From a virus (taxonomy: Duplodnaviria > Heunggongvirae > Uroviricota > Caudoviricetes), in the IMG/VR virus record IMGVR_UViG_2713896899_000007, positions 7,041 to 71,040 of that record: a DNA stretch of 64,000 bases. One strand, given 5' to 3'. The stretch's first letter is position 1. Every line of letters starts with the position of its first letter. Shown piece after piece: positions 19,464-50,827 of the stretch. The notes below the pieces were generated by a model that was not told the origin of the DNA, did not search any database, and worked only from the letters and a program-made list of their open reading frames with translations. Made by a program: the position numbers and the translations under genes.

Positions 19464-20354
19464 TTATGCCGGTAAAGCAATTTCTAACGGTTTATCCAAA
19501 GGTTGTTTGTCGAATGCCAGCAGTGGCAGCGTGTCAGGCAGTCGACGACCAAAGTCAGGGTTTCGATACACACCATACAACGGAGACGTAAAGCTCAGGT
19601 TGTGAATGTCCTTGAGCAGCTTCACAATGCTGGCCTCGTCCACCAGACTGTCGGCAATGTCCTGAATCGTCGTGCCACGATTCCGCCCAGCTTTTGCCAG
19701 GGAACTGTTCTTGTGGTAGTCCGCCACCAGATCACGCAGTGCACGGCGACGACGAGACTCGCTCATTGCGAACAACTCTTTGACGATCGCCTCGTTATCA
19801 CCCGGGTCAGAACGGAAATGGCGCTGGAATACACGCAGTGCACTTTCATAGCTCTTCGGTCGCTCAGGGCGGATGAACTTAAACCCCGCTTTCATGGCGA
19901 AGGGATTGTATTTGCTCATCGAGGACTGGATCTCAATGATTGGCCGGTCATGCATCCTGCTAACCAGGTTAATCATTCGATAAGAGACGCCTACGCCACG
20001 ATACTGAGTATCCACAACTGAGCGACTGATCACCGCAAAGTTGTTATTCACGTACCGACCCCAGTACTGGTTAGCCACGGTGGTATTAGTGGTTGGTTTC
20101 AACTTAGGAAACATGCGGTGGCGAGGTGCCAACAGTAGTTTCGGGTAAGCCATAACCACGACGCCCACCAGACGGTCATCAAGTTCGCAGCGATAGTAAG
20201 TTGGCGCGAAAGGTTTGCCGTCTGTTTTGTAGTGAAGCGACTTAAGAGCGTGCCAGTCCTCTACAGTTCCCTTTGTAACAGTCATTCGCTCCAGAAAGTC
20301 CAGATGACGCGGAAACTCTTCAGGGCGGTAGCGTTTAATGATGATGTCCGTCAT
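19464..20354 (-). CDS. GNAT-fold acetyltransferase-like protein with C-terminal extension
   Basis: GNAT motif A-like VVDTQYRGVGVSYRMINLV and motif B-like NPFAMKAGFKFI; 296 aa. Confidence 0.5.
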   Translation of the reverse strand: MTDIIIKRYRPEEFPRHLDFLERMTVTKGTVEDWHALKSLHYKTDGKPFAPTYYRCELDDRLVGVVVMAYPKLLLAPRHRMFPKLKPTTNTTVANQYWGRYVNNNFAVISRSVVDTQYRGVGVSYRMINLVSRMHDRPIIEIQSSMSKYNPFAMKAGFKFIRPERPKSYESALRVFQRHFRSDPGDNEAIVKELFAMSESRRRRALRDLVADYHKNSSLAKAGRNRGTTIQDIADSLVDEASIVKLLKDIHNLSFTSPLYGVYRNPDFGRRLPDTLPLLAFDKQPLDKPLEIALPA

Positions 20355-21016
20355 GAATGGACCTCATCGTGACTACCATTGTGATATTCCACCTTCACGC
20401 GTTCTTTGTAGTGCTTGGTGATCTGCATATCCGGGCGCAGCGCGTTCTTCAGGTCTTCGTGAGTCGTCGCCACCATTACCGTCGCACCAACCTTTCGAGC
20501 GGCACGCTGGAGGTTAGACGCCACAACCTGAGCGGTTACACGGTCGAGAACAGCGCCGAACTCGTCAGCAGCCCACACTTTAGCGTCTGACTCAATCAGT
20601 TTGGCAATCTTGAGACGATATTTCTGGCCGTCTGACATTTCAGAAGGCTTGCGAACAAACAGATATGCATCGTTCAGACCAGCCATAGATAACAACCCAA
20701 GCGCATCACTGGTCGTTTTGCCCAACTGATCGATGACGTTAACCTCATTATCGAAGGTAAAATCATCGATGGAGGCTACAGACAGCCCTTCATCCTTCAT
20801 CTGTCGTTGCAACTCGCGCAGCACAACGGATTTGCCGGAACCGGATTGGCCGGTGATGTACACCACATCGCCCTGCTTCACTTCCAGCTCCAGATTGTCG
20901 TAAAGCGTCCACTCTTTTTCGTCCAGGCCAAGCCCGAACGACTCAGCGATTTCCAATGTGCGCGTGGTTTTATTTACGCGTGTCTGAAACGATACGTTGA
21001 TGATGTATTTGCTCAT
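20351..21016 (-). CDS. Soluble ABC-type ATPase
   Basis: Walker A GQSGSGKS, ABC signature-like SDGQKYRL, Walker B VWAADEF, H-loop TTHE; no transmembrane domain; stop overlaps GNAT start. Confidence 0.65.
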   Translation of the reverse strand: MSKYIINVSFQTRVNKTTRTLEIAESFGLGLDEKEWTLYDNLELEVKQGDVVYITGQSGSGKSVVLRELQRQMKDEGLSVASIDDFTFDNEVNVIDQLGKTTSDALGLLSMAGLNDAYLFVRKPSEMSDGQKYRLKIAKLIESDAKVWAADEFGAVLDRVTAQVVASNLQRAARKVGATVMVATTHEDLKNALRPDMQITKHYKERVKVEYHNGSHDEVHS

Positions 21017-21681
21017 GCAGCCATCTCCCCGGAAGAGATCTTCTCCGCATATGCCACAAATGCGTCTACCCCGCTTTCTCCCGTCATTTCTTCCATGTGG
21101 GCAAGCAAATCACCAACAACAATGGCAGAGCCAGCAGGGAGCGTTTTAAAGCCCAATACGTCGACAACACGTACTTCTTCCGCTGCAACTTCACGACTGA
21201 TCTCGGTGTGTTCATCCTTCTGTCGTTTAGTTTCTTCGCCAAGATCGATAACTAGCGAGTCGGTGTCCATTTCTTCTGTCATACTGCCAACGAGAACATT
21301 CAACTCACGCTCTTCAAAGCCGAAAACCTCGATATCGTCCAGAACAAGCGACTCAAGCTCTTTCTGTAGCTTAATTGCATCGTAATCAATGCTGGCAAGT
21401 CGGTTATCTTCAAGGCGCTTCGCACGAACCTCGTCATCACTGAGATCATCGCGAACAATAACCGGTACGCGCTCAAGTCCAGCAAAAATTGCAGCCTCAC
21501 GGCGGCCGTGGCCAGTAATAATTACGTCGTTCTTATCGACCGTAATTGGCTGGTCAAATCCGCGCTTTTTAATGGCTGCGGCTAGATCTCGGATCTGCTG
21601 TTCATCATGCTTTTTGGCATTCATCTCATAGGGAATAAGATCTGCCGGGTCGCGATATACGATTTCAAACTTTTTGGTCAT
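21013..21681 (-). CDS. ParB/Srx-fold nuclease-domain protein 1
   Basis: ParB box-like ITGHGRREAAIFAGLERVPV; start set to ATG 21679-21681 (MTKKFEIVYR), which overlaps the stop of the upstream paralog. Confidence 0.6.
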   Translation of the reverse strand: MTKKFEIVYRDPADLIPYEMNAKKHDEQQIRDLAAAIKKRGFDQPITVDKNDVIITGHGRREAAIFAGLERVPVIVRDDLSDDEVRAKRLEDNRLASIDYDAIKLQKELESLVLDDIEVFGFEERELNVLVGSMTEEMDTDSLVIDLGEETKRQKDEHTEISREVAAEEVRVVDVLGFKTLPAGSAIVVGDLLAHMEEMTGESGVDAFVAYAEKISSGEMAA

Positions 21682-22361
21682 TACATACGCTCCTTGTAGT
21701 AGTCGACCAGCCACACCAGAGCCTCACCAGCGTTCTCCATTTCATTACCGGTGTTAATAGCCTGCTCTTTGATGATGTTTTTTATGGTTTCTGCAACACG
21801 ATCTGACGCATCGAAAGTTACTTTGAAGCGCATGGTCTGATGTTCCGCACCCACACGTTCGGTTTTCTCCCGTTTGTCGGTATCGACAGGCTCATCACTA
21901 CCACGAGACAACGCCTCCAGTGCTTCAAGGTCGATTGCCGCCTCTTTTGCTAAAACCATCGAGATTTCGTCGTCATACGGGGCGATTTCAGACAGTTGAT
22001 AGTCAAGTTCTGACTGAATTTCTTCAATGAAGCGTTGCAATGCGATTTGGTCGTCTTCACCGTATCGCTCGTTGTCCACCAGTGACATCTGTTTTGCCAC
22101 GACATCGCTAATTTTGCCCACAGAAAGCACCGGAACCGTTGAAATTCCTTGCTCAATAGCAGCACGCCAGCGATGTTCGCCGCCGAGGATTTCAAAAAAT
22201 CCATCTTCAAGTTCACGAGCCAAAATTGGCTTAAAAAAGCCCAATTTTTCGATAGAACCTTTCAGTTTTTCAAAATTCTGCGCACCAACCGAATTGGTGT
22301 TCCAGGTATTCGGGCGAAGGTTGGCAACATCAACCTGCAAAATCGTGATTTTTACATCCAT
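21681..22361 (-). CDS. ParB/Srx-fold nuclease-domain protein 2
   Basis: ILGGEHRWRAAIEQGISTVPVL ParB box; track start at 22379 is a GTG, the ATG at 22359-22361 is preferred. Confidence 0.55.
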   Translation of the reverse strand: MDVKITILQVDVANLRPNTWNTNSVGAQNFEKLKGSIEKLGFFKPILARELEDGFFEILGGEHRWRAAIEQGISTVPVLSVGKISDVVAKQMSLVDNERYGEDDQIALQRFIEEIQSELDYQLSEIAPYDDEISMVLAKEAAIDLEALEALSRGSDEPVDTDKREKTERVGAEHQTMRFKVTFDASDRVAETIKNIIKEQAINTGNEMENAGEALVWLVDYYKERM

Positions 22362-22443
22362 TTTATTGCTACAATCCACTAAGTAACTGCTTACTTATTA
22401 TAATAGCCAAATAACATACAAAAGGCACTAAGGAAAGAGGTTT

Positions 22444-24003
22444 ATGACTGTTCGGATTGTATCTAACGCAGTTAATGCGCTTATTTCTGGCGCAGATGAC
22501 AAGGTAAAGCAACTGGTGCAGCAAATGTTGAGCTACGAAGTCGAGACTGGCGACTGGAAGGGCACAAGCACGATGTTCAACTGGAGTAAAAACTCGTTCC
22601 CTGCTGGCTTTGCCAAGCCTGTAGCGGCGAACTTGAACAAGGCGGGCATCAAATGTGTTCATATCCGCAAAGACAAAGCCCCGGCGCTTGGTAAACCAAA
22701 TCCGGCGGTTAACCCATTCCCATACAATCCTGATTATGCGTATCAGGATCAGACTGTGGAAACACTGGTTCGAGAGGGAATGATGATTGCGCAGATCGCT
22801 ACTGGTGGCGGGAAATCTAACGTTGCCTGCAAAGCAGCTGCACGTATCGGTCGAATGACATTATTTTTAACAACCCGCTCTGTTCTGATGTTTCAAATGG
22901 CCGAAAACTTCCAGAGATCCATCGACTACCGCGCCGAAAATGGCGAACCGTGGTTAAAAGACCAAAAGGTTGGAGTCATTGGCTCGGGTGAGTTCCAGGT
23001 ATCACGACATATCAACGTCGCTACAGTTCAAACTCTTGCAAGTTTCCTCGAAGAACCACCACGCGATGCAACACCAGATAAGAAAAGCTACCACCTCAAA
23101 CGTCGGGAGTTGGTGAAACGCTTCCTTTCAAGTGTCTCTCTTCTTATTCTGGAAGAGGCGCATGAGTCTTCAGGCTCAAATTTCTATGACATCGCCAGAT
23201 TATGTGTGAACGCAGACTATCGTCTGGCGCTTACAGCCACGCCGTTCATGAAGGATTCGACGGAAGCCAACATGCGCCTGATGGCGGTGGCCGGGCGAAT
23301 TGAAATTAAAGTCACAGAAAAGTACCTGATTGATCGAGGCATTCTGGCAAAGCCGTACTTCCTTTATCATAAAGTTGCCTACAAACCAGACGAGGCCAGA
23401 ATCAAGGCAGAACTTGCCAACAAACACCTCAATTTTAGAGTAGGTATGAGTACTGCCTACCAAAAGGCTTATCAGTTGGGGATCGTGTATAATTTGGGAC
23501 GTAACGAGGCCATTGTTCGCGAAGCATTGCTCTATAAGCAACATTCTCTCAATTGTATGACTCTGGTTCGCCTTAAACGCCACGGGCAAATCCTGATGGA
23601 AATGATGAAAGAGTCCGGCCTTAGAGTTGACTTCATCTATGGGGAATCTAACCAGGCGACAAGGCAAGCAAAGCTGAACAGTTTAGCGTCTGGAGAAATA
23701 GATGTTTTAATAGGCTCGACTATTCTGGATGTCGGTGTTGATGTGCCAAGCGTTGGTGCGGTCATTCTTGCTGGTGGTGGGAAAGCAGAAGTTGAAATGA
23801 GGCAGCGTGTCGGTCGTGGCTTACGAGCCAAGAAGAATCAGGCAAACGTGTGTTTTATCACTGATTTCATTGACACTAGCAACAAATACCTGTTGTCTCA
23901 CTCTTATGAGCGAAAACACATCATCGACACCACACCTGGCTTTGCAGAAGGTGTATTGCCTATTGATGGCGCATTCGATTTTGGAGTTCTGAAACGAGAT
24001 TAG
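22444..24003 (+). CDS. Superfamily II DNA/RNA helicase
   Basis: Motif I ATGGGKS, motif II ILEEAHE, motif III TATP, motif VI QRVGRGLR. Confidence 0.8.
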   Translation: MTVRIVSNAVNALISGADDKVKQLVQQMLSYEVETGDWKGTSTMFNWSKNSFPAGFAKPVAANLNKAGIKCVHIRKDKAPALGKPNPAVNPFPYNPDYAYQDQTVETLVREGMMIAQIATGGGKSNVACKAAARIGRMTLFLTTRSVLMFQMAENFQRSIDYRAENGEPWLKDQKVGVIGSGEFQVSRHINVATVQTLASFLEEPPRDATPDKKSYHLKRRELVKRFLSSVSLLILEEAHESSGSNFYDIARLCVNADYRLALTATPFMKDSTEANMRLMAVAGRIEIKVTEKYLIDRGILAKPYFLYHKVAYKPDEARIKAELANKHLNFRVGMSTAYQKAYQLGIVYNLGRNEAIVREALLYKQHSLNCMTLVRLKRHGQILMEMMKESGLRVDFIYGESNQATRQAKLNSLASGEIDVLIGSTILDVGVDVPSVGAVILAGGGKAEVEMRQRVGRGLRAKKNQANVCFITDFIDTSNKYLLSHSYERKHIIDTTPGFAEGVLPIDGAFDFGVLKRD

Positions 24004-34366: not shown

Positions 34367-34506
34367 CAGAAAACAAATTGTTTTAGGGGCTGAGTAAATC
34401 AGAAGGGATTGCGTCTATATGAAAATGCCCAGCAATACGCTGGGCATTGTGAAGAATGGTTGTTTAGTTACTTAACTTGGTGGCCTGGTTTAGCACCAGC
34501 ATCCGG
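34367..34506. repeat. metG 3'-end repeat copy 2 (authentic metG terminus and terminator)
   Basis: Direct repeat of 33497-33636, offset 870 bp. Confidence 0.8.
34420..34448 (-). terminator. metG rho-independent terminator (within repeat copy 2)
   Basis: AATGCCCAGC...GCTGGGCATT stem followed by UUUU on minus strand, 20 bp after metG stop. Confidence 0.6.
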
Positions 34507-36501
34507 GCTTAACAGGAAGATATCTTTCCCGCCGGGGCCAGCAGCCATCACCATGCCTTCGGAGATACCGAAGCGCATTTTACGCGGAGCCAGGTTAGCC
34601 ACCATAATTGTGTGACGACCAATCAGTGCCTGTGGGTCTGGATAAGCAGAACGGATGCCTGAGAAGACATTACGCTTTTCACCACCGAGATCCAGTGTCA
34701 GGCGCAACAGTTTGTCAGAACCTTCAACAAACTCCGCGTTTTCAATCAGCGCCACACGCAGGTCAACTTTGGCGAAGTCGTCAAAGGTGATGGTTTCCTG
34801 AATCGGGTCGTCAGCCAGTGGGCCAGTAACTGGCGCGGCAGTAGCTTTCACTTCTTCTTTGGATGCTTCCACCAGTGCTTCCACCTGTTTCATATCGATA
34901 CGGTTATACAGTGCCTTGAACGGATTCACTTTATGGCCCAGCAGCGGTTGCTGGATACCATCCCAGGTCAGTTCTGTATTCAGGAATGCTTCTGCACGTT
35001 CAGTCAGTTTCGGCAGTACCGGTTTCAGATACGTCATCAGCACGCGGAACAGGTTAATGCCCATAGAGCAAATCGCCTGCAGATCTGCATCGCGACCTTC
35101 CTGCTTCGCCACCACCCACGGAGCCTGTTCATCGACATAGCGGTTAGCCAGGTCAGCCAATGCCATGATTTCACGGATAGCTTTACCAAATTCGCGGCTT
35201 TCCCATGCTTCGCCAATCACTTCAGCGGCATCAGTAAAGGTTTTGTACAGTTGCGGGTCAGCCAGTTCGCTTGCCAGCACGCCGTCAAAACGCTTGTTGA
35301 TAAAGCCTGCATTACGGGAGGCCAGGTTAACCACTTTGTTAACAATATCGGCATTCACTCGCTGAACGAAATCCTCCAGGTTGAGATCGATATCATCAAT
35401 GCGCGAAGAGAGTTTCGCAGTGTAGTAGTAACGCAGGCTGTCAGCGTCAAAATGATTCAGCCAGGTGCTGGCTTTAATAAAGGTGCCGCGAGACTTGGAC
35501 ATCTTCGCACCGTTCACCGTCACATAGCCATGAACAAACAGGTTGGTCGGCTTGCGGAAGTTGCTGCCTTCCAGCATGGCAGGCCAGAACAGACTGTGGA
35601 AGTAAACGATATCTTTACCGATGAAGTGGTACAGCTCGGCGGTGGAGTCTTTCTTCCAGTATTCATCGAAGCTGGTGGTATCGCCGCGCTTGTCGCACAG
35701 ATTCTTGAAGGAACCCATGTAGCCAATCGGTGCGTCCAGCCAGACGTAGAAATATTTACCCGGCGCGTTCGGAATTTCAAAACCGAAGTAAGGTGCGTCG
35801 CGGGAGATATCCCACTGTTGCAGACCAGATTCAAACCACTCCTGCATTTTGTTTGCCACCTGCTCCTGCAACGCACCGCTGCGGGTCCATGCCTGCAACA
35901 TTTCGCTGAAAGAGGGCAGATCAAAGAAGAAGTGTTCAGAATCACGCATTACCGGGGTAGCACCAGAAACCACCGATTTCGGCTCGATCAGTTCAGTCGG
36001 GCTGTAGGTCGCGCCACAAACTTCACAGTTATCGCCGTATTGATCTGGCGCTTTACATTTCGGGCAGGTGCCTTTCACAAAACGATCCGGCAGGAACATG
36101 CCTTTTTCCGGGTCGTACAACTGAGAGATAGTGCGGTTTTTAATAAAACCGTTCTCTTTCAGGCGAGTATAAATAAGCTCAGACAGCTGGCGGTTCTCTT
36201 CGCTGTGCGTCGAGTGATAGTTGTCATAGCTGATGTTAAAGCCTGCGAAATCAGTCTGGTGTTCCTGACTCATTTCGCCAATCATCTGCTCCGGTGTGAT
36301 ACCAAGTTGCTGTGCTTTCAGCATGATCGGCGTACCGTGGGCATCGTCGGCACAGATGAAATTAACCTCGTGGCCGCGCATTCGCTGGTAACGAACCCAG
36401 ACATCAGCCTGGATGTGCTCCAGCATATGGCCGAGGTGGATTGAGCCGTTAGCGTACGGCAGCGCGCACGTCACCAGAATTTTCTTCGCGACTTGGGTCA
36501 T
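34468..36501 (-). CDS. metG: Methionine--tRNA ligase
   Basis: 677 aa from ATG 36499-36501 ([26 protein letters not shown]...KMSKS...[10 protein letters not shown]); near-identical to E. coli MetG over full length as I recall it; the track ORF is extended upstream. Confidence 0.95.
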
Positions 36502-36658
36502 AGTAGGCATTACTTCTTTGTAGTGAAAAGGGGCTTGATAGTAACAAAATGGCCTTATGTCTGCCATGTGATAACAGCATTTCTCATAAATGATTAAATG
36601 TCGTAGCTGGAGTACACTACAAGGCGACAATTGCGCAAATTAAAATAAAGGAGACGGG

Positions 36659-42148: not shown

Positions 42149-42702
42149 TACGATGCCTCTAACTTGTCTAACTCTTTCAGCCCTTCACGTACCGCGTTCA
42201 CAATGCGTTCCAGATACTGGTATTTCGGGTTTGGTACCGTTGGCCAGTCGGCATACCACGGATCATCACCAAAGAGATTCAGTAGTTTGTTACCGACGCC
42301 GAAACAGCAGCAGCTTTCTTTTACGTCATCGGCGTTTTCCGCCTCGTCCCACATTTCGCGAGCCAGTACGGCGTCTATTTCTCTCTCTCTTCGTAACTTT
42401 ATGATTTCTGACTTCACGAAAAGCAGATTTGCATCGTTGTCATCGTCGACCGTGCTTCGCAGTTGAGGGTCGAAATAGCCGATTAGATACTCGTTGCTGA
42501 CCCGCTTAATGAACGTCTGCACATCATCACCGCCCATAGCAAACCAAGCCGCAGTCCACGCTTTTCCGTAGCAGGTGATGGTGATTCTTCCCTTACCAGG
42601 TTCGTAGTTTTCAATCATCACTCGAACCGGATCGAGGCGTTCCAGATCCGTCAGCACAAAGGAAAGAACATCTATTTTTTCGATCTTCATGCAGCCTCCC
42701 AC
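42148..42702 (-). CDS. Hypothetical protein
   Basis: 184-aa ORF; probable start at internal Met (MKIEKIDV). Confidence 0.4.
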   Translation of the reverse strand: MGGCMKIEKIDVLSFVLTDLERLDPVRVMIENYEPGKGRITITCYGKAWTAAWFAMGGDDVQTFIKRVSNEYLIGYFDPQLRSTVDDDNDANLLFVKSEIIKLRREREIDAVLAREMWDEAENADDVKESCCCFGVGNKLLNLFGDDPWYADWPTVPNPKYQYLERIVNAVREGLKELDKLEAS

Positions 42703-43328
42703 GCGCTCCAGATCAGCGATTTGTGTTTTTCATAACGTTTGATGTGTACCGGTTTCAGAAGCGCAATACCTTCAGTGACTTTCGCCATTGCGCTTAATAA
42801 CAACGGGTGTTCTATACCTATCCTCTCCATGTACTCGACAACATCAGCGTTGGCACCAATCTCCTTCCCGTTAAAAAGTACGTCCAGCATCAGCTCTTTC
42901 TCTGCAAGGTAGATAGCTGAAAACTCAGGATCGCGACTCACGATAGAAGAGGTATTGTCGAGCAGGTCAGCCAGCTTGATCATGCGCGTCTGCATGTCGA
43001 GATTTTGCTCCAGCTCCCGGACATTGATGATGAAACGCTGTATTCGATTGCCGTCTTCTGGCCTTGCGATGTTGGTCAGAGCCTGAACCATTTCAGCTAC
43101 GCGCTCACCGAAGTGATCACGAACCATCTCTATGGTTACATTGGTGTCTTCGACCACATCATGCAGAAGCGCCGCGATTTGCATCTCCACGGTTCCGTCA
43201 TGCAATGCAACAATCTCTCGGACAGCAACCGGGTGGTTGATGTAGTCTTCGCCGGTATATTTTCTTTTCTGACCAACGCCACCATGAGCGCCAGCGGCGA
43301 ACATATGTGCTTCGGAAATACTAGACAT
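42687..43328 (-). CDS. Small alarmone hydrolase (RelA/SpoT-type HD-domain (p)ppGpp/(p)ppApp hydrolase)
   Basis: Complete RSH hydrolase motifs AHGGVGQKRKYTGEDYINHP, ALHDG, LLHDVVEDT; single-domain 213 aa. Confidence 0.7.
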   Translation of the reverse strand: MSSISEAHMFAAGAHGGVGQKRKYTGEDYINHPVAVREIVALHDGTVEMQIAALLHDVVEDTNVTIEMVRDHFGERVAEMVQALTNIARPEDGNRIQRFIINVRELEQNLDMQTRMIKLADLLDNTSSIVSRDPEFSAIYLAEKELMLDVLFNGKEIGANADVVEYMERIGIEHPLLLSAMAKVTEGIALLKPVHIKRYEKHKSLIWSAWEAA

Positions 43329-44593: not shown

Positions 44594-46279
44594 TCATTTA
44601 ACGCGTTTGAAAACGTATACGCTGACTGTGATCCCTGTGTCTTCAAACTCGTTGGTAAACGACTTCCCTCTGGCATAAACGTAATTATCCATCGTCATCC
44701 AGTCCAGTATTGGCGCAGTGCCCGGCAATACTGCTACAAGACGCCCGCCGACTTTCAGATGCCCCAGCGCAGCCATCGTGTGCTCTCTATGACGACCAAG
44801 CGAGTACGGCGGGTTCATAACGATTTTGTCGAACTGATAACCTGCGTTGTCCTCAGACCACTTTATGAAGTCGCAGCAAATCGTGTTCGTATACCCTTTT
44901 CCACGCAGGATATCAGCGAAGAGAGGTGCGATTTCTATGCAGGTAACATCTTCCAGATCGGCGTTAATATAGGCCAGAAGATCCCCACGTCCGGCTTGAG
45001 GCTCCAGCAGCTTCTCACCAGGCTTCAATTCAGTGGCTCTGGCAACGTACTCAGCAATCAAGCGTGGGGTAGGGTAGAACTGGTGTGATTTTGTATCCGG
45101 TATTAAACCGGTAGCCACAATCGTATTTAGCGTATGGCCGATGTCATACGGGAACTGCCAGTGCTTTTTCTCCTGCACGCCGCCAATGAAGCTCAGTGTG
45201 CGCTCAAGCTCTTCCACCTGCGACTTCTGGAGAGCTGAATCAGAGAAGTACCATACGCCTTTGTCTTTGCTCAATCGCCCGTCACGAAGCGCAGTGCGAA
45301 CCGGCACGGAGATCGTCTTCTGGATTAACCCGAACTGCTTTGGTGCCCGTGTTTTTGGCGCAGTGCGGCATGGCGCGGGGATTGCAGCAGGCATACTGTA
45401 AGCCAGCACCTCATTCAACTTCCAGGCCACGTCAGGATGTATTTCAAAGTGAACGTTGCCGTTCTTGAACATCTTCACGCGCATCAGATTTCCATCGACG
45501 TTCATCCAGTCACCGGTCTGGCAGTCGTTTGCCCGATACGCAGCTGATAGCACCTCAGCAGTGCGGTTGATGGTAATAAATTCTTTGTGCGCGAAGAAAT
45601 GAAGCAAGACACGCAGATCGTCGATGTAGTCCTCTTTGCGATAGTTCACGCTAACGCTGTCCCGCCAGAAATCAGAAATGCAGTCAGCGATTATCAGCCG
45701 CTCGCTGAAACCGTTTGTCTTATTCGTCTTGTGCGCAGGACTCAGCGCCTTAAACAAGCCATACACGCGCTCAGAGAGATATTTGTGCCTGTCATTCAGC
45801 AAATTAAGCATCGTGGGTATGACCGTTTCTGCTTTGAACTCCGGTACACCAACGAACTCTTTAACCTTCATCTGGTAGCCGGTTCTGTCAGTTTTGATGA
45901 CTTCCTGTTTGCCCTCTATAAACTGCTCGCGCCACTCATCTCGACGGGAAGCTGGCATGATCAGCAAAACGTTAGTCATGTCCGTGACCTTCCTCCAGTA
46001 CTCGGCCCAAATATTCTGTTTCACCCATTCCAGATCGACTTTATCCAACCAACCTCGATTTAAACGCGAGCGATCTTCATCTGGTCGATGGTTTAGTCGC
46101 AGCAGGCGATTAATCATGTTGTGGCGTTCGTCGCCATAAACGAAGTCGTGTACCTGATACATGAAGGCGATCTCTTTCTCGCACTCGGCCACGATTTCGT
46201 GGATGACATTCATTTCCTGACGATAGTCGATAGCCGTGTTTGAGCTGGCATCGTCGATGATGGAAAGGGCTGTATTCAT
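44594..46279 (-). CDS. Large protein with C-terminal gamma-class N6-adenine DNA methyltransferase domain
   Basis: FYPTP motif, AdoMet motif I LLEPQAGRGDLL, catalytic motif IV NPPY in the C-terminal 180 aa; about 380-aa N-terminal region of unknown function. Confidence 0.6.
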   Translation of the reverse strand: MNTALSIIDDASSNTAIDYRQEMNVIHEIVAECEKEIAFMYQVHDFVYGDERHNMINRLLRLNHRPDEDRSRLNRGWLDKVDLEWVKQNIWAEYWRKVTDMTNVLLIMPASRRDEWREQFIEGKQEVIKTDRTGYQMKVKEFVGVPEFKAETVIPTMLNLLNDRHKYLSERVYGLFKALSPAHKTNKTNGFSERLIIADCISDFWRDSVSVNYRKEDYIDDLRVLLHFFAHKEFITINRTAEVLSAAYRANDCQTGDWMNVDGNLMRVKMFKNGNVHFEIHPDVAWKLNEVLAYSMPAAIPAPCRTAPKTRAPKQFGLIQKTISVPVRTALRDGRLSKDKGVWYFSDSALQKSQVEELERTLSFIGGVQEKKHWQFPYDIGHTLNTIVATGLIPDTKSHQFYPTPRLIAEYVARATELKPGEKLLEPQAGRGDLLAYINADLEDVTCIEIAPLFADILRGKGYTNTICCDFIKWSEDNAGYQFDKIVMNPPYSLGRHREHTMAALGHLKVGGRLVAVLPGTAPILDWMTMDNYVYARGKSFTNEFEDTGITVSVYVFKRVK

Positions 46280-46292
46280 AATTACACCATTA

Positions 46293-46326
46293 AATAATTT
46301 GTTTTCTTATTGGTGTAATTATCGCA
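46293..46326 (-). promoter_or_regulatory. Early promoter/leader motif instance upstream of methyltransferase gene
   Basis: minus-strand GCGATAATTACACCAATAAGAAAACAAATTATTT, near-identical to 31581-31614. Confidence 0.45.
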
Positions 46327-46420
46327 AACTTGAAAAGGCATAAAAGCTGCATTCATAGGCGTTACAGCAGATTTAAGGCGTAAAAATGGGGGCTTTCGCC
46401 CCCTGTCGACTGGTGCAGTA

Positions 46421-46987
46421 TTAGAGTGCGTATTGCGTTTTGTGCGGCTGCTTATTCAAGTCATGGCGATGCGTGAGCTCCCGCATCATGTCTTCAAGGC
46501 GACTCTTTGTGTCGTCGAGCTGGTCGGCCATTGCACCTAAAAGCTGGCGAACGGCCATCGGATTGTCGCTGTTTAGTGATGGCATTTTATAACCTGCTTT
46601 AGAAGACATAAGGTTAATTGCAGACATCAACATCGTTAGAGAGGATTTAAGCCCGGCAATTTCACGATCTTTGCTGGCAATAATCGTCTCACTTTTGTTA
46701 CCGTCATGAGTTCCTTGAGTCTCGCTCACCATATCCAAAGTCGCTTGCAACTTATCGGCTCTCTCTTTTTCAGCAAGGTAATGAACGCCGAAATGATGTG
46801 CTAAAGCTACAACCTGAGTTGGTTCTTCAAAGGTGGAATTAAAATTAAGTACTGTAAACAGTCTCTCAAATATGGAAACGTCTTCTGTTCCCCGAACAAT
46901 GCCTAACATTTTGACAAGTTCATTAGCATCCATTTCTTCGAATAGGGCGTTTTGTTCATCAGCTATTGCTTTGCATTTCTCGCACAT
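46421..46987 (-). CDS. Hypothetical early protein
   Basis: 188-aa ORF with conserved leader (motif 47003-47028, AAGGAAAACAC before ATG). Confidence 0.4.
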   Translation of the reverse strand: MCEKCKAIADEQNALFEEMDANELVKMLGIVRGTEDVSIFERLFTVLNFNSTFEEPTQVVALAHHFGVHYLAEKERADKLQATLDMVSETQGTHDGNKSETIIASKDREIAGLKSSLTMLMSAINLMSSKAGYKMPSLNSDNPMAVRQLLGAMADQLDDTKSRLEDMMRELTHRHDLNKQPHKTQYAL

Positions 46988-47284: not shown

Positions 47285-47710
47285 TTAGAGATAAGCATCC
47301 AGTGACAACTGAAGCGCCTGGGCGATCTTTTTCAGTGCCTGCTCTTCTTGTTCACCAATGCCGTCCTGGTCGGCAATATCAAGGCACAGACACAGAACAT
47401 CGACCGCCTCTGGAGTGCCCGCAATATCAGCCAGCTCACGCATAGCCTGTGCATTAGCGGAACGAGGGGACGCTTCGTAACGAGCACGGATATTGGCGCT
47501 CATTTGGGCAATCTCACCAGCAAACGGAGAAAACGCAGGCAGAGCTGCAATTGTCTTCTCAAGAATGGCAATTTCTTTTGCGTCACATGTGCCGTCGGCA
47601 TAGGAGATCATGTACGCGCCCCACACGGTGGCCTCAACCGCATCACGGTTCTCCATTTTTTTGACTTCGATAACTGCTTTACGAGTTTTCTTTTTGAAGA
47701 AACCTAACAT
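47285..47710 (-). CDS. TerB-like domain protein (putative)
   Basis: 141 aa; helical with YADGTCDAKEIAILE and DQDGIGEQEEQALKKIA segments typical of TerB-fold proteins; conserved leader upstream. Confidence 0.35.
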   Translation of the reverse strand: MLGFFKKKTRKAVIEVKKMENRDAVEATVWGAYMISYADGTCDAKEIAILEKTIAALPAFSPFAGEIAQMSANIRARYEASPRSANAQAMRELADIAGTPEAVDVLCLCLDIADQDGIGEQEEQALKKIAQALQLSLDAYL

Positions 47711-48644: not shown

Positions 48645-49289
48645 CTAATTGTTATAAACAAAACCAATATCTTTCTTGTGAGGCATATCTGCTGCTGAAA
48701 AAGCTGCGATCTTCGCGAGTCGATCACATATTTCATTTTCACGATGCCCGGCGTGACCTTTAACCCACTTCCAGCGAACATTATGTCGACTTGCGGCCTC
48801 ATCCAGACGCTTCCACAGATCAACATTCTTTACCGGTTTTTTGTCAGAAGTCATCCATCCATTGCGTTTCCACCATTTCATCCACTGTGTCATGCCGTTT
48901 TTCAGATACTGGCTATCAGAGTGCAAAATAACGTTGCATGGATATTTCAAACGCTCCAGCCCGATAAGTGCCCCCATCATCTCCATGCGGTTATTGGTGG
49001 TGCTATGAAAACCATCTGAGAACTCGCGTTCCTCACCACGATACTGGAGAACTATACCGTAACCGCCCGGGCCACCCGGATTTTTAAGGCAAGAGCCATC
49101 ACTGAAGATTTTCACGGTTTTAAGCTGGGGATTGAACTCTACGACAGGCGTTGTGGGATTGGTGCGGGGAGAATTTTTGTTTTTGTCTTTTTTGCGAGTT
49201 TTTGCTTGCGATCGGGCTGGTGTCTTCGACGTCATATAAACTCCTGAATCAAGCGCCGCGCCGATTTTTTTCCTCGCGCGTGCGCACAC
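48645..49289 (-). CDS. rnhA: Ribonuclease HI with basic N-terminal extension
   Basis: [27 protein letters not shown]...[16 protein letters not shown]...HSDSQY...[18 protein letters not shown] matches RNase HI catalytic core; about 45-aa Lys/Thr/Pro-rich N-terminal extension. Confidence 0.8.
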
Positions 49290-50233: not shown

Positions 50234-50827
50234 CTAAGCAGCCTTCTTTGATGGTCTTTTTTTCCTGACCACATTCGCAGGATCATACCCTCCCAGACTT
50301 TTCATTACGTCCAAAGGGATCTTGCTTATAGAGTGCCCAGCGTCCTGACAGAATCCTCGAAAAACAACGAGCATACTGCCACCGGGGTTGATGTTTACTT
50401 CTACCTGACCCAAATTGACGTCAGGCTCGACAAACGCTACGCGGCCACCAGACAGAATAATCGTCTCATTCGCATACTCTGTTGCACGCTCATACCACTT
50501 TGTATCGAGGGATTGAGGAATTAGCATCACTGTTGTAACTCCGCGAGCCTGCTCACGTATAGCAGCATCAATCCAGGGGGAGATTTTGGAGTAGGGTGGA
50601 TTGAGGAAGGCAATTGTACCTGGCTGTCCCCATTCAGATTTCAAAGCATCGCGCTCAACGCCTATGAAATTAGGCAGCTTTGCATTGTCCTTGTTGCAGG
50701 CAACGTCAACATCAAATGTCACTCCAAGATAACGTTGAATGGCAGAAAACAGCCAATCAGGTGTTCTCCAGAGGTCACGAAGAGAGTTGTCGCGCTTTCG
50801 CTGTTTGATTTTTTCGGCTGCAATCAT
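50234..50827 (-). CDS. Phage-type DNA N6-adenine methyltransferase (Dam family)
   Basis: LWRTPDWLF, FLNPPYS catalytic motif, 197 aa. Confidence 0.65.
   Translation of the reverse strand: MIAAEKIKQRKRDNSLRDLWRTPDWLFSAIQRYLGVTFDVDVACNKDNAKLPNFIGVERDALKSEWGQPGTIAFLNPPYSKISPWIDAAIREQARGVTTVMLIPQSLDTKWYERATEYANETIILSGGRVAFVEPDVNLGQVEVNINPGGSMLVVFRGFCQDAGHSISKIPLDVMKSLGGYDPANVVRKKRPSKKAA

What the first reader, a model, noticed from the sequence alone, without database searches (positions are those of the whole stretch)
44594..46279. N6-adenine methyltransferase domain fused to a 380-aa domain of unknown function, in addition to a separate Dam
The C-terminal 180 aa has the FYPTP, motif I and NPPY signatures of a gamma-class adenine methyltransferase; the N-terminal two thirds has no recognisable motif. 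A Dam-family enzyme is also encoded at 50234-50827. Two adenine methyltransferases plus a GNAT-like protein hint at more than simple Dam methylation.
Basis: partly seen in the sequence, partly recalled or inferred. Interest (0 to 1): 0.4.

Follow-up and report, generated by a model that had tools for sequence, protein, structure and literature searches.

The report
Orphan adenine methyltransferase fused to DUF4942
This gene of an SSU5-like phage-plasmid encodes a catalogued but never characterised protein: a complete copy of a self-standing phage protein family of unknown function (DUF4942) joined to a minimal adenine DNA methyltransferase, most likely used to hide the element's DNA from host restriction enzymes.

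Summary
ORF 44594-46279 (-) encodes 561 aa with FYPTP (401-405), EPQAGRG (426-432) and NPPY (489-492). A PF05869 Dam-family enzyme lies at 50234-50827. The window is an SSU5-like phage-plasmid (98.9% to Escherichia phage CMS-2020a). The gene is the ortholog of SSU5_095 and matches PHROG 6263 full length, so the family is catalogued but uncharacterised.

No recurrent restriction-enzyme family appeared among the neighbours of the roughly 33 homolog loci surveyed; other orphan methyltransferases recur. The likeliest role is self-protective adenine methylation. What DUF4942 does is unknown. No GNAT was detected in the ORFs I scanned, and nothing indicates hypermodification.

The parts
44594..46279 (-). 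Complete CDS, 561 aa plus stop: DUF4942-methyltransferase fusion protein, ortholog of SSU5_095 / CYRAN_90
   Evidence: (PHROG 6263, 1e-299, full length)
45365..46279 (-). DUF4942 module, aa 1-305. It comprises a helical N-terminal part (aa 20-120), a clade-specific beta-hairpin insertion (aa 121-140) and the DUF4942 core. It is homologous over aa ~25-303 to whole self-standing DUF4942 proteins of 245-290 aa.
   Evidence: secondary structure; aa 121-140 are 81% gaps in the family; hhalign 99.87%, E 9.5e-32, 236 columns
45722..45742 (-). Family-invariant loop motif S-x-x-H-x-T-N (SPAHKTN, aa 180-186). K-T-N is also kept in self-standing DUF4942 proteins (YKTN).
   Evidence: 131/131 representatives; S180, H183, T185, N186 at 100% of 139
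45434..45499 (-). Conserved beta-beta-alpha stretch of the DUF4942 core, VDGN...FKNGNVHFEIHP (aa 261-282). D262 is 99% conserved, G274 97% and H277 100%; N289 (100%) follows in the next helix.
45095..45364 (-). Variable linker domain, aa 306-395: a small alpha/beta domain and, with aa 1-120, one of the two most variable parts, 84-130 aa long across the family. It travels with the methyltransferase core in natural chimeras and in PHROG 9133. It is the best candidate for a specificity determinant.
   Evidence: (phrog_9133 matches aa 328-560)
44597..45094 (-). Minimal Rossmann amino-methyltransferase core, aa 396-561. Motifs: X FYPTP 401-405, I EPQAGRG 426-432, II E449, III D470-F471, IV NPPY 489-492, conserved H500 and F545. 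There is no C-terminal recognition domain.
46278..46322 (-). Perfect 12-bp inverted repeat ATAATTACACCA (46311-46322) / TGGTGTAATTAT (46278-46289) with a 21-nt spacer. It covers the GGTG Shine-Dalgarno sequence and the first two bases of the ATG. It could be a translational hairpin or an operator. It is conserved only in the closest relatives.
   Evidence: -13.9 kcal/mol, z -2.2; Cyrano keeps it with one compensatory A:T to G:C change; degenerate in SSU5, pHCM2 and Klebsiella elements
46388..46403 (-). Terminator-like GC hairpin GGGGGCGAAAGCCCCC followed by a T-run, between the upstream gene (46421-46987) and this gene. It suggests the gene has its own transcription start.
   Evidence: the hairpin is also present in SSU5
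50234..50827 (-). Second, unrelated orphan adenine methyltransferase, 197 aa, PF05869 Dam / TIGR01712 phage N6A methyltransferase, NPPY at aa 76

Best explanation
The gene encodes an orphan methyltransferase typical of mobile elements, built from two separable modules. Module 1 (aa 1-305) is a full-length copy of the self-standing DUF4942 protein family. Module 2 (aa 306-561) is a variable ~90-aa alpha/beta linker domain followed by a minimal ~165-aa gamma-order NPPY Rossmann core. Shown: the core has all SAM-binding and catalytic motifs of N6-adenine (amino) methyltransferases. It resembles DNA adenine methyltransferases (M.TaqI, CamA, M.BseCI) and the methyltransferase cores embedded in DarB-like anti-restriction giants and in a 187-aa protein of IncF leading regions. 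The fusion is the family norm. No restriction-enzyme family recurs among the neighbours surveyed, and other orphan methyltransferases often do. Inferred: the protein methylates adenine N6 in the phage-plasmid's own DNA, during plasmid maintenance and/or lytic replication, so that progeny or the resident plasmid escape host restriction. The variable linker, not DUF4942, is the likeliest carrier of whatever sequence preference exists. DUF4942 is a conserved accessory module (DNA handling, recruitment, or a second activity) and not a conventional target-recognition domain. Rough probabilities: active amino-methyltransferase 0.85; substrate is DNA adenine 0.75; biological role is restriction evasion 0.55; DUF4942 is not the sequence-specificity domain 0.65.

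For: Relatives of the core: the DarB-like anti-restriction protein of Serratia phage Parlo (33.6% over 119 aa, E 9e-9; CDS 11,295 nt); giant-protein PHROGs 15406, 11358 and 10691; and a 187-aa IncF leading-region methyltransferase lying between an anti-restriction gene (upstream) and ssb/psiB (downstream) (31% id, E 2e-15).

Fusion is the norm: 610 clusters at 50% identity hit the N-module, and most of the 150 listed are 500-590 aa. NPP[YFW] is present in 128/131 full-length representatives and in 73/75 genomic ORFs.

Orphan status and context: SSU5, Cyrano, IncHI2, phiPSA1 and two lambdoid prophages carry it in early or accessory regions beside Dam, N6_N4 or C5 methyltransferases. In a census of 150 neighbouring ORFs from about 33 loci, the most frequent families were PAPS reductase/DndC-like, methyltransferases, integrases and replication genes, and no restriction-enzyme family appeared among the 25 most frequent families of Pfam or PADLOC.

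Module boundary: hhalign of the N-module against self-standing DUF4942 proteins gives 99.87%, E 9.5e-32, covering aa ~25-303 against their whole length. The natural chimera P0044 is 92.5% identical to the window in aa 1-305 but 50% in 306-561, where it is 99.6% identical to Klebsiella-type P0080.

Literature: orphan methyltransferases of phages and plasmid leading regions protect incoming DNA (PMC11541004, PMC7736820).
Confidence: 0.6

Rival explanations
1. DUF4942 is the enzyme's target-recognition and DNA-binding domain, placed N-terminally instead of C-terminally. On this reading the protein is simply a permuted Type II orphan methyltransferase with one defined recognition sequence.
Against: Recognition domains vary with specificity, yet the DUF4942 core is as conserved as the catalytic core and has ten residues at 100% identity in 139 divergent homologs. 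The whole module is homologous to self-standing 245-290 aa proteins, and the four genomic places inspected have no methyltransferase gene beside them. Natural recombination swaps aa 306-561 as a unit onto an unchanged DUF4942 module. The S-subunit matches cover ~88 residues at rmsd 7-8 A among hundreds of generic helical hits.
Confidence: 0.2
2. It is a low-specificity enzyme coupled to single strands or to replication, working like M.EcoGIX/M.BceJIII. It would methylate many adenines on DNA exposed during plasmid or phage replication, with DUF4942 recruiting it to the replisome or to single-stranded DNA.
For: The minimal core also occurs alone (187 aa) in IncF leading regions, between an anti-restriction gene and ssb/psiB, the same neighbourhood as M.EcoGIX (PMC7736820, PMC12672017). 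Homologs sit next to SSB, DnaT, DnaC-like and replication genes in prophages. Strong conservation of DUF4942 fits a conserved protein partner better than variable DNA sequences.
Against: M.EcoGIX is a beta-class DPPY enzyme (PMC7736820). Its gene ends, taken from the published primers, are absent from the window and from the IncF locus. There is therefore no homology-based transfer of its properties. No evidence bears on strand preference.
Confidence: 0.15
3. It is a bifunctional 'mini-polyvalent' protein. DUF4942 would be an independent effector (an anti-defence protein or a second enzyme) that has been fused to a methyltransferase, as in DarB-like giants where several counter-defence activities share one chain.
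For: DUF4942 exists on its own in phage early regions and, according to annotation, in CP4-like islands next to KlcA, RadC and toxin-antitoxin genes (PMC6980539). The self-standing and fused families share a constellation of conserved residues, including polar ones (T185, N186, D221, H277, N289), which suggests a binding or active site. The core is related to those of DarB-like anti-restriction proteins.
Against: No fold or sequence similarity to any enzyme or known anti-defence protein was found. Invariant residues could be structural. The pI is not acidic as in DNA mimics.
Confidence: 0.2
4. It is an RNA (rRNA or tRNA) adenine methyltransferase used to modify host translation.
Against: Sequence profiles favour DNA enzymes: M.TaqI 4e-4, PacII and EcoR124 M, PADLOC MTase_II 2e-10, and PHROG 'DNA methyltransferase' families. 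Identity is highest to M.TaqI and CamA (25-27%). The gene repeatedly sits with other DNA methyltransferases.
Confidence: 0.07
5. It is part of a restriction-modification system or a Type IIG/IIL fusion, with DUF4942 as the nuclease.
For: There is a weak PADLOC REase_MTase_IIG hit (0.0011), confined to the methyltransferase core. Some phage records label homologs 'RE endonuclease'.
Against: No nuclease fold or motif was detected. No restriction-enzyme family appears among the frequent neighbours. There is no C-terminal recognition domain as in MmeI-type enzymes.
Confidence: 0.02

Closest known systems
SSU5_095 / CYRAN_90 / pHCM2 'YdiA'-type proteins (PHROG 6263; NCBI 'DUF4942 domain-containing protein')
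   Same: Orthologs: 89.8-98.9% nucleotide identity, same length, same genomic position in SSU5-like phage-plasmids. The closest protein cluster is 99% identical and has 1384 member sequences.
   Different: Nothing of substance. These are database annotations only; I found no experimental work on them.
Gamma-class N6-adenine DNA methyltransferases (M.TaqI, M.BseCI, CamA)
   Different: Those enzymes carry a large C-terminal DNA-recognition domain. This protein has none, and instead has 395 N-terminal residues unrelated to any of them.
Self-standing DUF4942 proteins (Pfam PF13708 core type; e.g. the 251-aa protein of Pseudoalteromonas phage PS_L5; PHROG 38825)
   Same: Homologous over their whole length to aa ~25-303 (hhalign E 9.5e-32). 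They share W95, P146, F176, K-T-N, D-L, G-N-x-H and N289.
   Different: They have no methyltransferase domain, and none is encoded next to them in the four places inspected. They match the Pfam model far better (158.6 bits) than the window protein does (74 bits).
M.EcoGIX / M.BceJIII, plasmid leading-region single-strand-specific SAY methyltransferases (PMC7736820)
   Same: Orphan m6A enzymes of mobile elements with a demonstrated anti-restriction role, and a useful functional analogy. A relative of this protein's core occupies the equivalent place in IncF leading regions.
   Different: Beta class with DPPY, and a different protein. They have no DUF4942.
DarB-like / polyvalent anti-restriction proteins (P1 DarB type; Serratia phage Parlo CPT_Parlo_081)
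   Same: They contain a methyltransferase core related to aa ~399-522 (33.6% id, E 9e-9; giant PHROGs).
   Different: They are thousands of residues long and, from my own knowledge of P1 DarB, carry a helicase domain and are packaged into the virion. This protein has 561 aa and two modules.
PF05869 phage Dam family (the second gene, 50234-50827)
   Same: Both are orphan NPPY adenine methyltransferases of the same element.
   Different: They are unrelated in sequence and motif layout: 197 aa, with NPPY near the N-terminal third.

Membership tests
Gamma-class N6-adenine DNA methyltransferase | Linear order of motifs: X, I-III (SAM binding), then IV-VIII (catalytic) | tested here: met
   FYPTP 401-405, EPQAGRG 426-432, E449, D470-F471, NPPY 489-492, F545
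Gamma-class N6-adenine DNA methyltransferase | (D/N)PP(Y/F) catalytic tetrapeptide on a class I Rossmann fold | tested here: met
Gamma-class N6-adenine DNA methyltransferase | Target-recognition domain C-terminal to the catalytic region | tested here: not met
   The protein ends 69 aa after NPPY, inside the Rossmann fold. The extra mass is N-terminal.
Gamma-class N6-adenine DNA methyltransferase | Transfers methyl to N6 of adenine in DNA | not testable with these tools
   Requires a methylome or an enzyme assay
Pfam DUF4942 (PF13708) | Score above the family's gathering threshold | tested here: met
   74 bits against 25, aa 140-295. Profile-profile match to self-standing members E 9.5e-32.
PHROG 6263 ('DNA methyltransferase') | Full-length match to the family profile | tested here: met
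   1e-299, aa 1-561 against profile positions 1-548 of 548
Orphan (solitary) methyltransferase of a mobile element | No cognate restriction endonuclease encoded nearby, here or in homolog loci | tested here: met
   Window and Cyrano/SSU5 neighbours. Six other contexts. Census of 150 neighbour ORFs with no restriction-enzyme family among the 25 most frequent.
M.EcoGIX / M.BceJIII single-strand-specific plasmid methyltransferases | Beta-class layout with DPPY; sequence homology to M.EcoGIX | tested here: not met
   Gamma order and NPPY here. DPPY and beta class are stated in PMC7736820. The gene ends of M.EcoGIX, taken from published primers, were not found.
M.EcoGIX / M.BceJIII single-strand-specific plasmid methyltransferases | Preference for single-stranded DNA and a degenerate motif | not testable with these tools
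   Biochemical property
DarB-like polyvalent anti-restriction protein | Giant multidomain chain joining a methyltransferase to a helicase and other effector domains | tested here: not met
   561 aa; the only Pfam hit above threshold is DUF4942. Only the methyltransferase core is shared.
Type IIG/IIL restriction-modification fusion (MmeI-like) | N-terminal nuclease domain and C-terminal recognition domain | tested here: not met
   No nuclease fold or motif in aa 1-395 and no C-terminal domain
Type I HsdM subunit | HsdM_N domain and adjacent hsdS/hsdR genes | tested here: not met
   No HsdM_N hit. No S or R genes nearby.
PF05869 phage Dam family (gene 50234-50827) | Score above the Pfam and TIGR01712 thresholds | tested here: met
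   132 bits against 28.1; 113.9 against 97.05
PF05869 phage Dam family (gene 50234-50827) | GATC specificity | not testable with these tools
   GATC is not depleted in the window (277 observed, 246 expected), which neither supports nor contradicts it

The most novel reading that the evidence does not exclude
DUF4942 is an autonomous, widespread effector module of mobile elements, either a counter-defence protein or a second enzymatic or ligand-binding activity built around the invariant T-N / D / G-N-x-H / N constellation. On this reading the protein is a compact two-activity counter-restriction factor. One example would be methylation of the element's DNA combined with neutralising the methylation-dependent or other host nucleases that such methylation provokes. 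It would be a miniature of the DarB-type polyvalent proteins.
Probability: 0.2. Interest if true: 0.6.

Novelty: new member of a known kind. Interest (0 to 1): 0.35.

Why it matters
SSU5-group phage-plasmids were found in about 17% of S. Typhi and 18% of S. sonnei surveillance genomes. [quoted passage not shown] This gene and the neighbouring Dam-family gene are plausible unrecognised anti-restriction equipment of these elements. Full-length homologs sit on IncHI2 resistance plasmids and in many proteobacterial prophages.

The family is large: 610 clusters at 50% identity. Pfam detects no methyltransferase in it, so its methyltransferase nature goes unreported in routine annotation. Its N-terminal module is a conserved protein family with no fold neighbour in PDB and no known function.

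One cheap experiment, expression followed by methylome sequencing with truncations, would assign a specificity. It would also show whether DUF4942 is needed for methylation.

Tried and rejected

2. Equating the enzyme, or its 187-aa IncF relative, with M.EcoGIX. Rejected: M.EcoGIX is DPPY and beta class, and its gene ends are absent.

3. A split version, with a self-standing DUF4942 followed by a separate methyltransferase gene. Neighbours of four self-standing genes have no NPP[YF] or motif I and no Pfam methyltransferase.

4. A conserved regulatory hairpin over the start codon. It is perfect in the window and in Cyrano, with one compensatory pair, but degenerate in SSU5, pHCM2 and Klebsiella relatives. 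It was therefore kept only as a side note.

5. Finding the 'GNAT-like protein'. No Pfam acetyltransferase hit in the 26 window ORFs scanned.

6. Reaching CP4-island DUF4942 genes in E. coli chromosomes through a klcA DNA search. It returned almost only plasmids, so the CP4 context rests on PMC6980539 alone.

7. Literature on DUF4942, and on SSU5 or pHCM2 methylation: nothing functional.

8. Charge as a clue, whether DNA mimic or DNA binder: pI values are near neutral and uninformative.

Full report
WHAT IS THERE. The window is part of an SSU5-like phage-plasmid. The 1686-nt stretch is 98.9% identical to Escherichia phage CMS-2020a, 98.4% to phage Cyrano and 89.8% to Salmonella phage SSU5. Nearly identical genes lie on ~105-117 kb IncFIB 'plasmids', including pHCM2 of S. 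Typhi.

ORF 44594-46279 (-) encodes 561 aa. In Cyrano it is CYRAN_90, 'DUF4942 domain-containing protein'; in SSU5 it is SSU5_095, 'DNA methyltransferase'. It matches PHROG 6263 over its full length at 1e-299. The nearest protein cluster is 99% identical and has 1384 member sequences. The sequence is therefore catalogued. I found no paper on its function.

THE OBSERVATION. FYPTP (aa 401-405), EPQAGRG (426-432) and NPPY (489-492) are present in gamma order. No Pfam methyltransferase model reaches threshold; the best is N6_Mtase at 18.4 bits against 20.4. Three other lines support the assignment:
- a 26-sequence profile hits M.TaqI at E 4e-4, plus PacII and EcoR124 M subunits;
- PADLOC Type II methyltransferase models hit at 2e-10;

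E426, G430, E449, D470-F471, N489, P491, H500 and F545 are 97-100% conserved in 139 homologs taken from 50%-identity clusters.

The second enzyme at 50234-50827 is a bona fide PF05869/TIGR01712 phage Dam-family protein.

ANATOMY. Secondary structure, conservation and comparisons define four parts:
- aa 1-120: helical and variable;
- aa 121-305: the DUF4942 core (Pfam hit at aa 140-295), with a clade-specific hairpin insertion at aa 121-140;
- aa 306-395: a small alpha/beta domain, as variable as aa 1-120, 84-130 aa long across the family;
- aa 396-561: a minimal Rossmann core with no C-terminal recognition domain.

THE N-TERMINAL PART IS A WHOLE PROTEIN FAMILY, NOT A RECOGNITION DOMAIN.

Self-standing relatives exist. 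A tblastn hit in Pseudoalteromonas phage PS_L5 led to a 251-aa protein that matches Pfam DUF4942 much better than the window protein does (158.6 against 74 bits). Its relatives are all 199-289 aa (47 of 48 are 243-289 aa) and carry DUF4942 only.

The homology is end to end. Profile-profile comparison of the N-terminal alignment with this family gives 99.87% probability, E 9.5e-32, over 236 columns. It covers aa ~25-303 of the window protein and essentially the whole length of the small proteins.

The small proteins work without a linked methyltransferase. They sit in phage early regions among small ORFs, and no methyltransferase gene lies beside them in the four places inspected. A published annotation also places a DUF4942 protein in the CP4-like SRL island, near KlcA, RadC and YeeU/YeeV (PMC6980539).

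Nature uses the same boundary. Protein P0044 is 92.5% identical to the window protein in aa 1-305 and only 50% in aa 306-561, where it is 99.6% identical to the Klebsiella-type P0080. PHROG 9133 (profile length 1259) matches aa 328-560, that is, linker plus core without DUF4942. The core alone exists as a 187-aa protein in IncF leading regions.

The conservation pattern does not fit a recognition domain. Recognition domains vary with specificity. Here the DUF4942 core is as conserved as the catalytic core (35-45% against 38-43% in the most distant homologs). The linker falls to 21-32% and aa 1-120 to 17-26%. W95, L179, S180, H183, T185, N186, W258, H277, N289 and L292 are identical in all 139 sequences. 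Several of these (W95, K-T-N, D-L, G-N-x-H, N289) are shared with the self-standing family.

No known fold matches:
- PDB sequence profile: nothing;
- BFVD: only weak uncharacterised phage proteins.

DISTRIBUTION AND CONTEXT. The N-module hits 610 clusters at 50% identity, and most of the 150 listed are 500-590 aa. Of 131 full-length representatives, 128 carry NPP[YFW] and all 131 carry S-x-x-H-x-T-N.

Genomic copies occur in Gamma-, Beta- and some Alphaproteobacteria. Of 75 target ORFs, 73 have the methyltransferase motif.

Contexts inspected:
- SSU5-type early/accessory region;
- IncHI2 plasmids, beside a Dam-family methyltransferase;
- lambdoid prophage early-right operons, beside N6_N4 and C5 methyltransferases;
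- phage phiPSA1, beside another methyltransferase, an exonuclease and SSB.

A census of 150 neighbouring ORFs from about 33 non-redundant loci gave these most frequent families: PAPS reductase/DndC-like (4), N6_N4_Mtase (3), integrase (3), DnaT (3), IstB-like (3) and C5 methylase (2). Dam, PsiA, SSB and RusA occurred once each. No restriction-enzyme family appeared among the 25 most frequent families in either Pfam or PADLOC. The enzyme is thus an orphan that travels with other orphans. The pairing with a Dam-family gene in this window is the rule rather than a sign of an elaborate pathway.

MECHANISM. Shown: an intact NPPY amino-methyltransferase core of the DNA-adenine type; a modular build; orphan status; residence in mobile elements. 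Also shown is relatedness of the core to those of DarB-like anti-restriction proteins. The match is 33.6% over 119 aa (E 9e-9) within the 11,295-nt CPT_Parlo_081 gene.

Inferred: the protein methylates adenines of the element's own DNA and thereby lowers its sensitivity to host restriction. This role is demonstrated for other phage and plasmid orphan methyltransferases (PMC11541004; PMC7736820).

The variable linker is my candidate for whatever sequence preference exists. The two C-module alleles among SSU5-like elements, only 50% identical, may differ in specificity.

What DUF4942 contributes is open. It could be a conserved DNA-handling or recruitment module, or an independent activity. I give the overall reading 0.6. 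The rivals are: DUF4942 as a permuted recognition domain (0.2), an M.EcoGIX-like enzyme coupled to single strands (0.15), a bifunctional effector (0.2), an RNA methyltransferase (0.07), and a restriction-modification fusion (0.02). These overlap and need not sum to one.

COMPARISON WITH THE KNOWN. By sequence the protein is a member of PHROG 6263 and of Pfam DUF4942. Its core meets the motif-order and fold criteria of gamma-class N6-adenine methyltransferases but fails the C-terminal recognition-domain criterion. It is not of the M.EcoGIX family, which is beta class with DPPY; that gene's ends are absent here. It may still work in a similar way. It shares only the core with DarB-like proteins.

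VERDICT. The feature is real and correctly described, and it belongs to a catalogued but uncharacterised family. The new point is that the 'domain of unknown function' is a complete, autonomous, highly conserved protein module with no PDB fold neighbour, joined at a recombination-prone junction to a minimal methyltransferase unit. Nothing supports a GNAT-linked hypermodification. Interest is moderate at 0.35: not surprising in kind, but a large, clinically widespread family whose function could be settled by one simple experiment.

Noticed in passing
window 19464-22379 (-), with 22444-24003 (+): Four overlapping co-oriented ORFs: two ParB_N proteins (232 and 233 aa), an ABC-type ATPase (221 aa), and a 296-aa ORF with no Pfam hit. 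Phage Cyrano's annotators labelled the last one as an ATPase fused to a predicted acetyltransferase domain. The cluster is divergent from a 519-aa ResIII/DEAD helicase.
   Followed up: partly
window 46278-46322 (-): A perfect 12-bp inverted repeat with a 21-nt spacer covers the Shine-Dalgarno sequence and the start of the gene's ATG (RNA fold -13.9 kcal/mol, z -2.2). Cyrano keeps it through one compensatory change. SSU5, pHCM2 and Klebsiella relatives have only a 5-bp core.
   Followed up: yes
L004 7914-8477 (IncF plasmid pH2332-166): A 187-aa 'class I SAM-dependent methyltransferase' with FVTP / EPSAGTG / NPPF lies in the leading region, downstream of an anti-restriction gene and DUF3560 and upstream of ssb/psiB. 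It is 31% identical to the window protein's core. It differs from the characterised M.EcoGIX, and I found no experimental work on it. Hits of this kind account for most of the 4571 plasmid records found.
   Followed up: partly
P0044 / P0045 against window and P0080 (protein level): Natural chimeras among SSU5-like elements: an E. coli/Salmonella-type DUF4942 module joined to a Klebsiella-type linker-plus-methyltransferase module. The crossover lies in the conserved HPDVAWKLNEVLA...AIP stretch around aa 300-306.
   Followed up: yes
L016-L048 (homolog loci in bacterial genomes): PAPS-reductase/DndC-like genes are the most frequent Pfam and PADLOC family among neighbours of DUF4942-methyltransferase genes (4 of 150 neighbour ORFs, about 33 loci). 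The window's Dam-family protein also weakly hits a PHROG annotated as PAPS reductase.
   Followed up: no
L003 (IncHI2A plasmid p28945-2) 6351-10635: The IncHI2 homolog (31% identity, full length) sits next to a Dam-family methyltransferase and a 387-aa 'DNA-binding protein', close to a RepB-family (RepHI-type) replication gene. This repeats the pairing with a second adenine methyltransferase seen in the window.
   Followed up: no
window 42687-43328, 47285-47710, 48645-49289, 34468-36630: Accessory genes typical of SSU5-like elements: an HD-domain phosphohydrolase, a TerB-like protein, RNase H and a methionyl-tRNA synthetase, plus Ead/Ea22-like genes flanking the methyltransferase.
   Followed up: no
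whole window: Tetranucleotide counts: CTAG at 0.12 of expectation and TATA at 0.41. GATC is not depleted (1.13).
   Followed up: no
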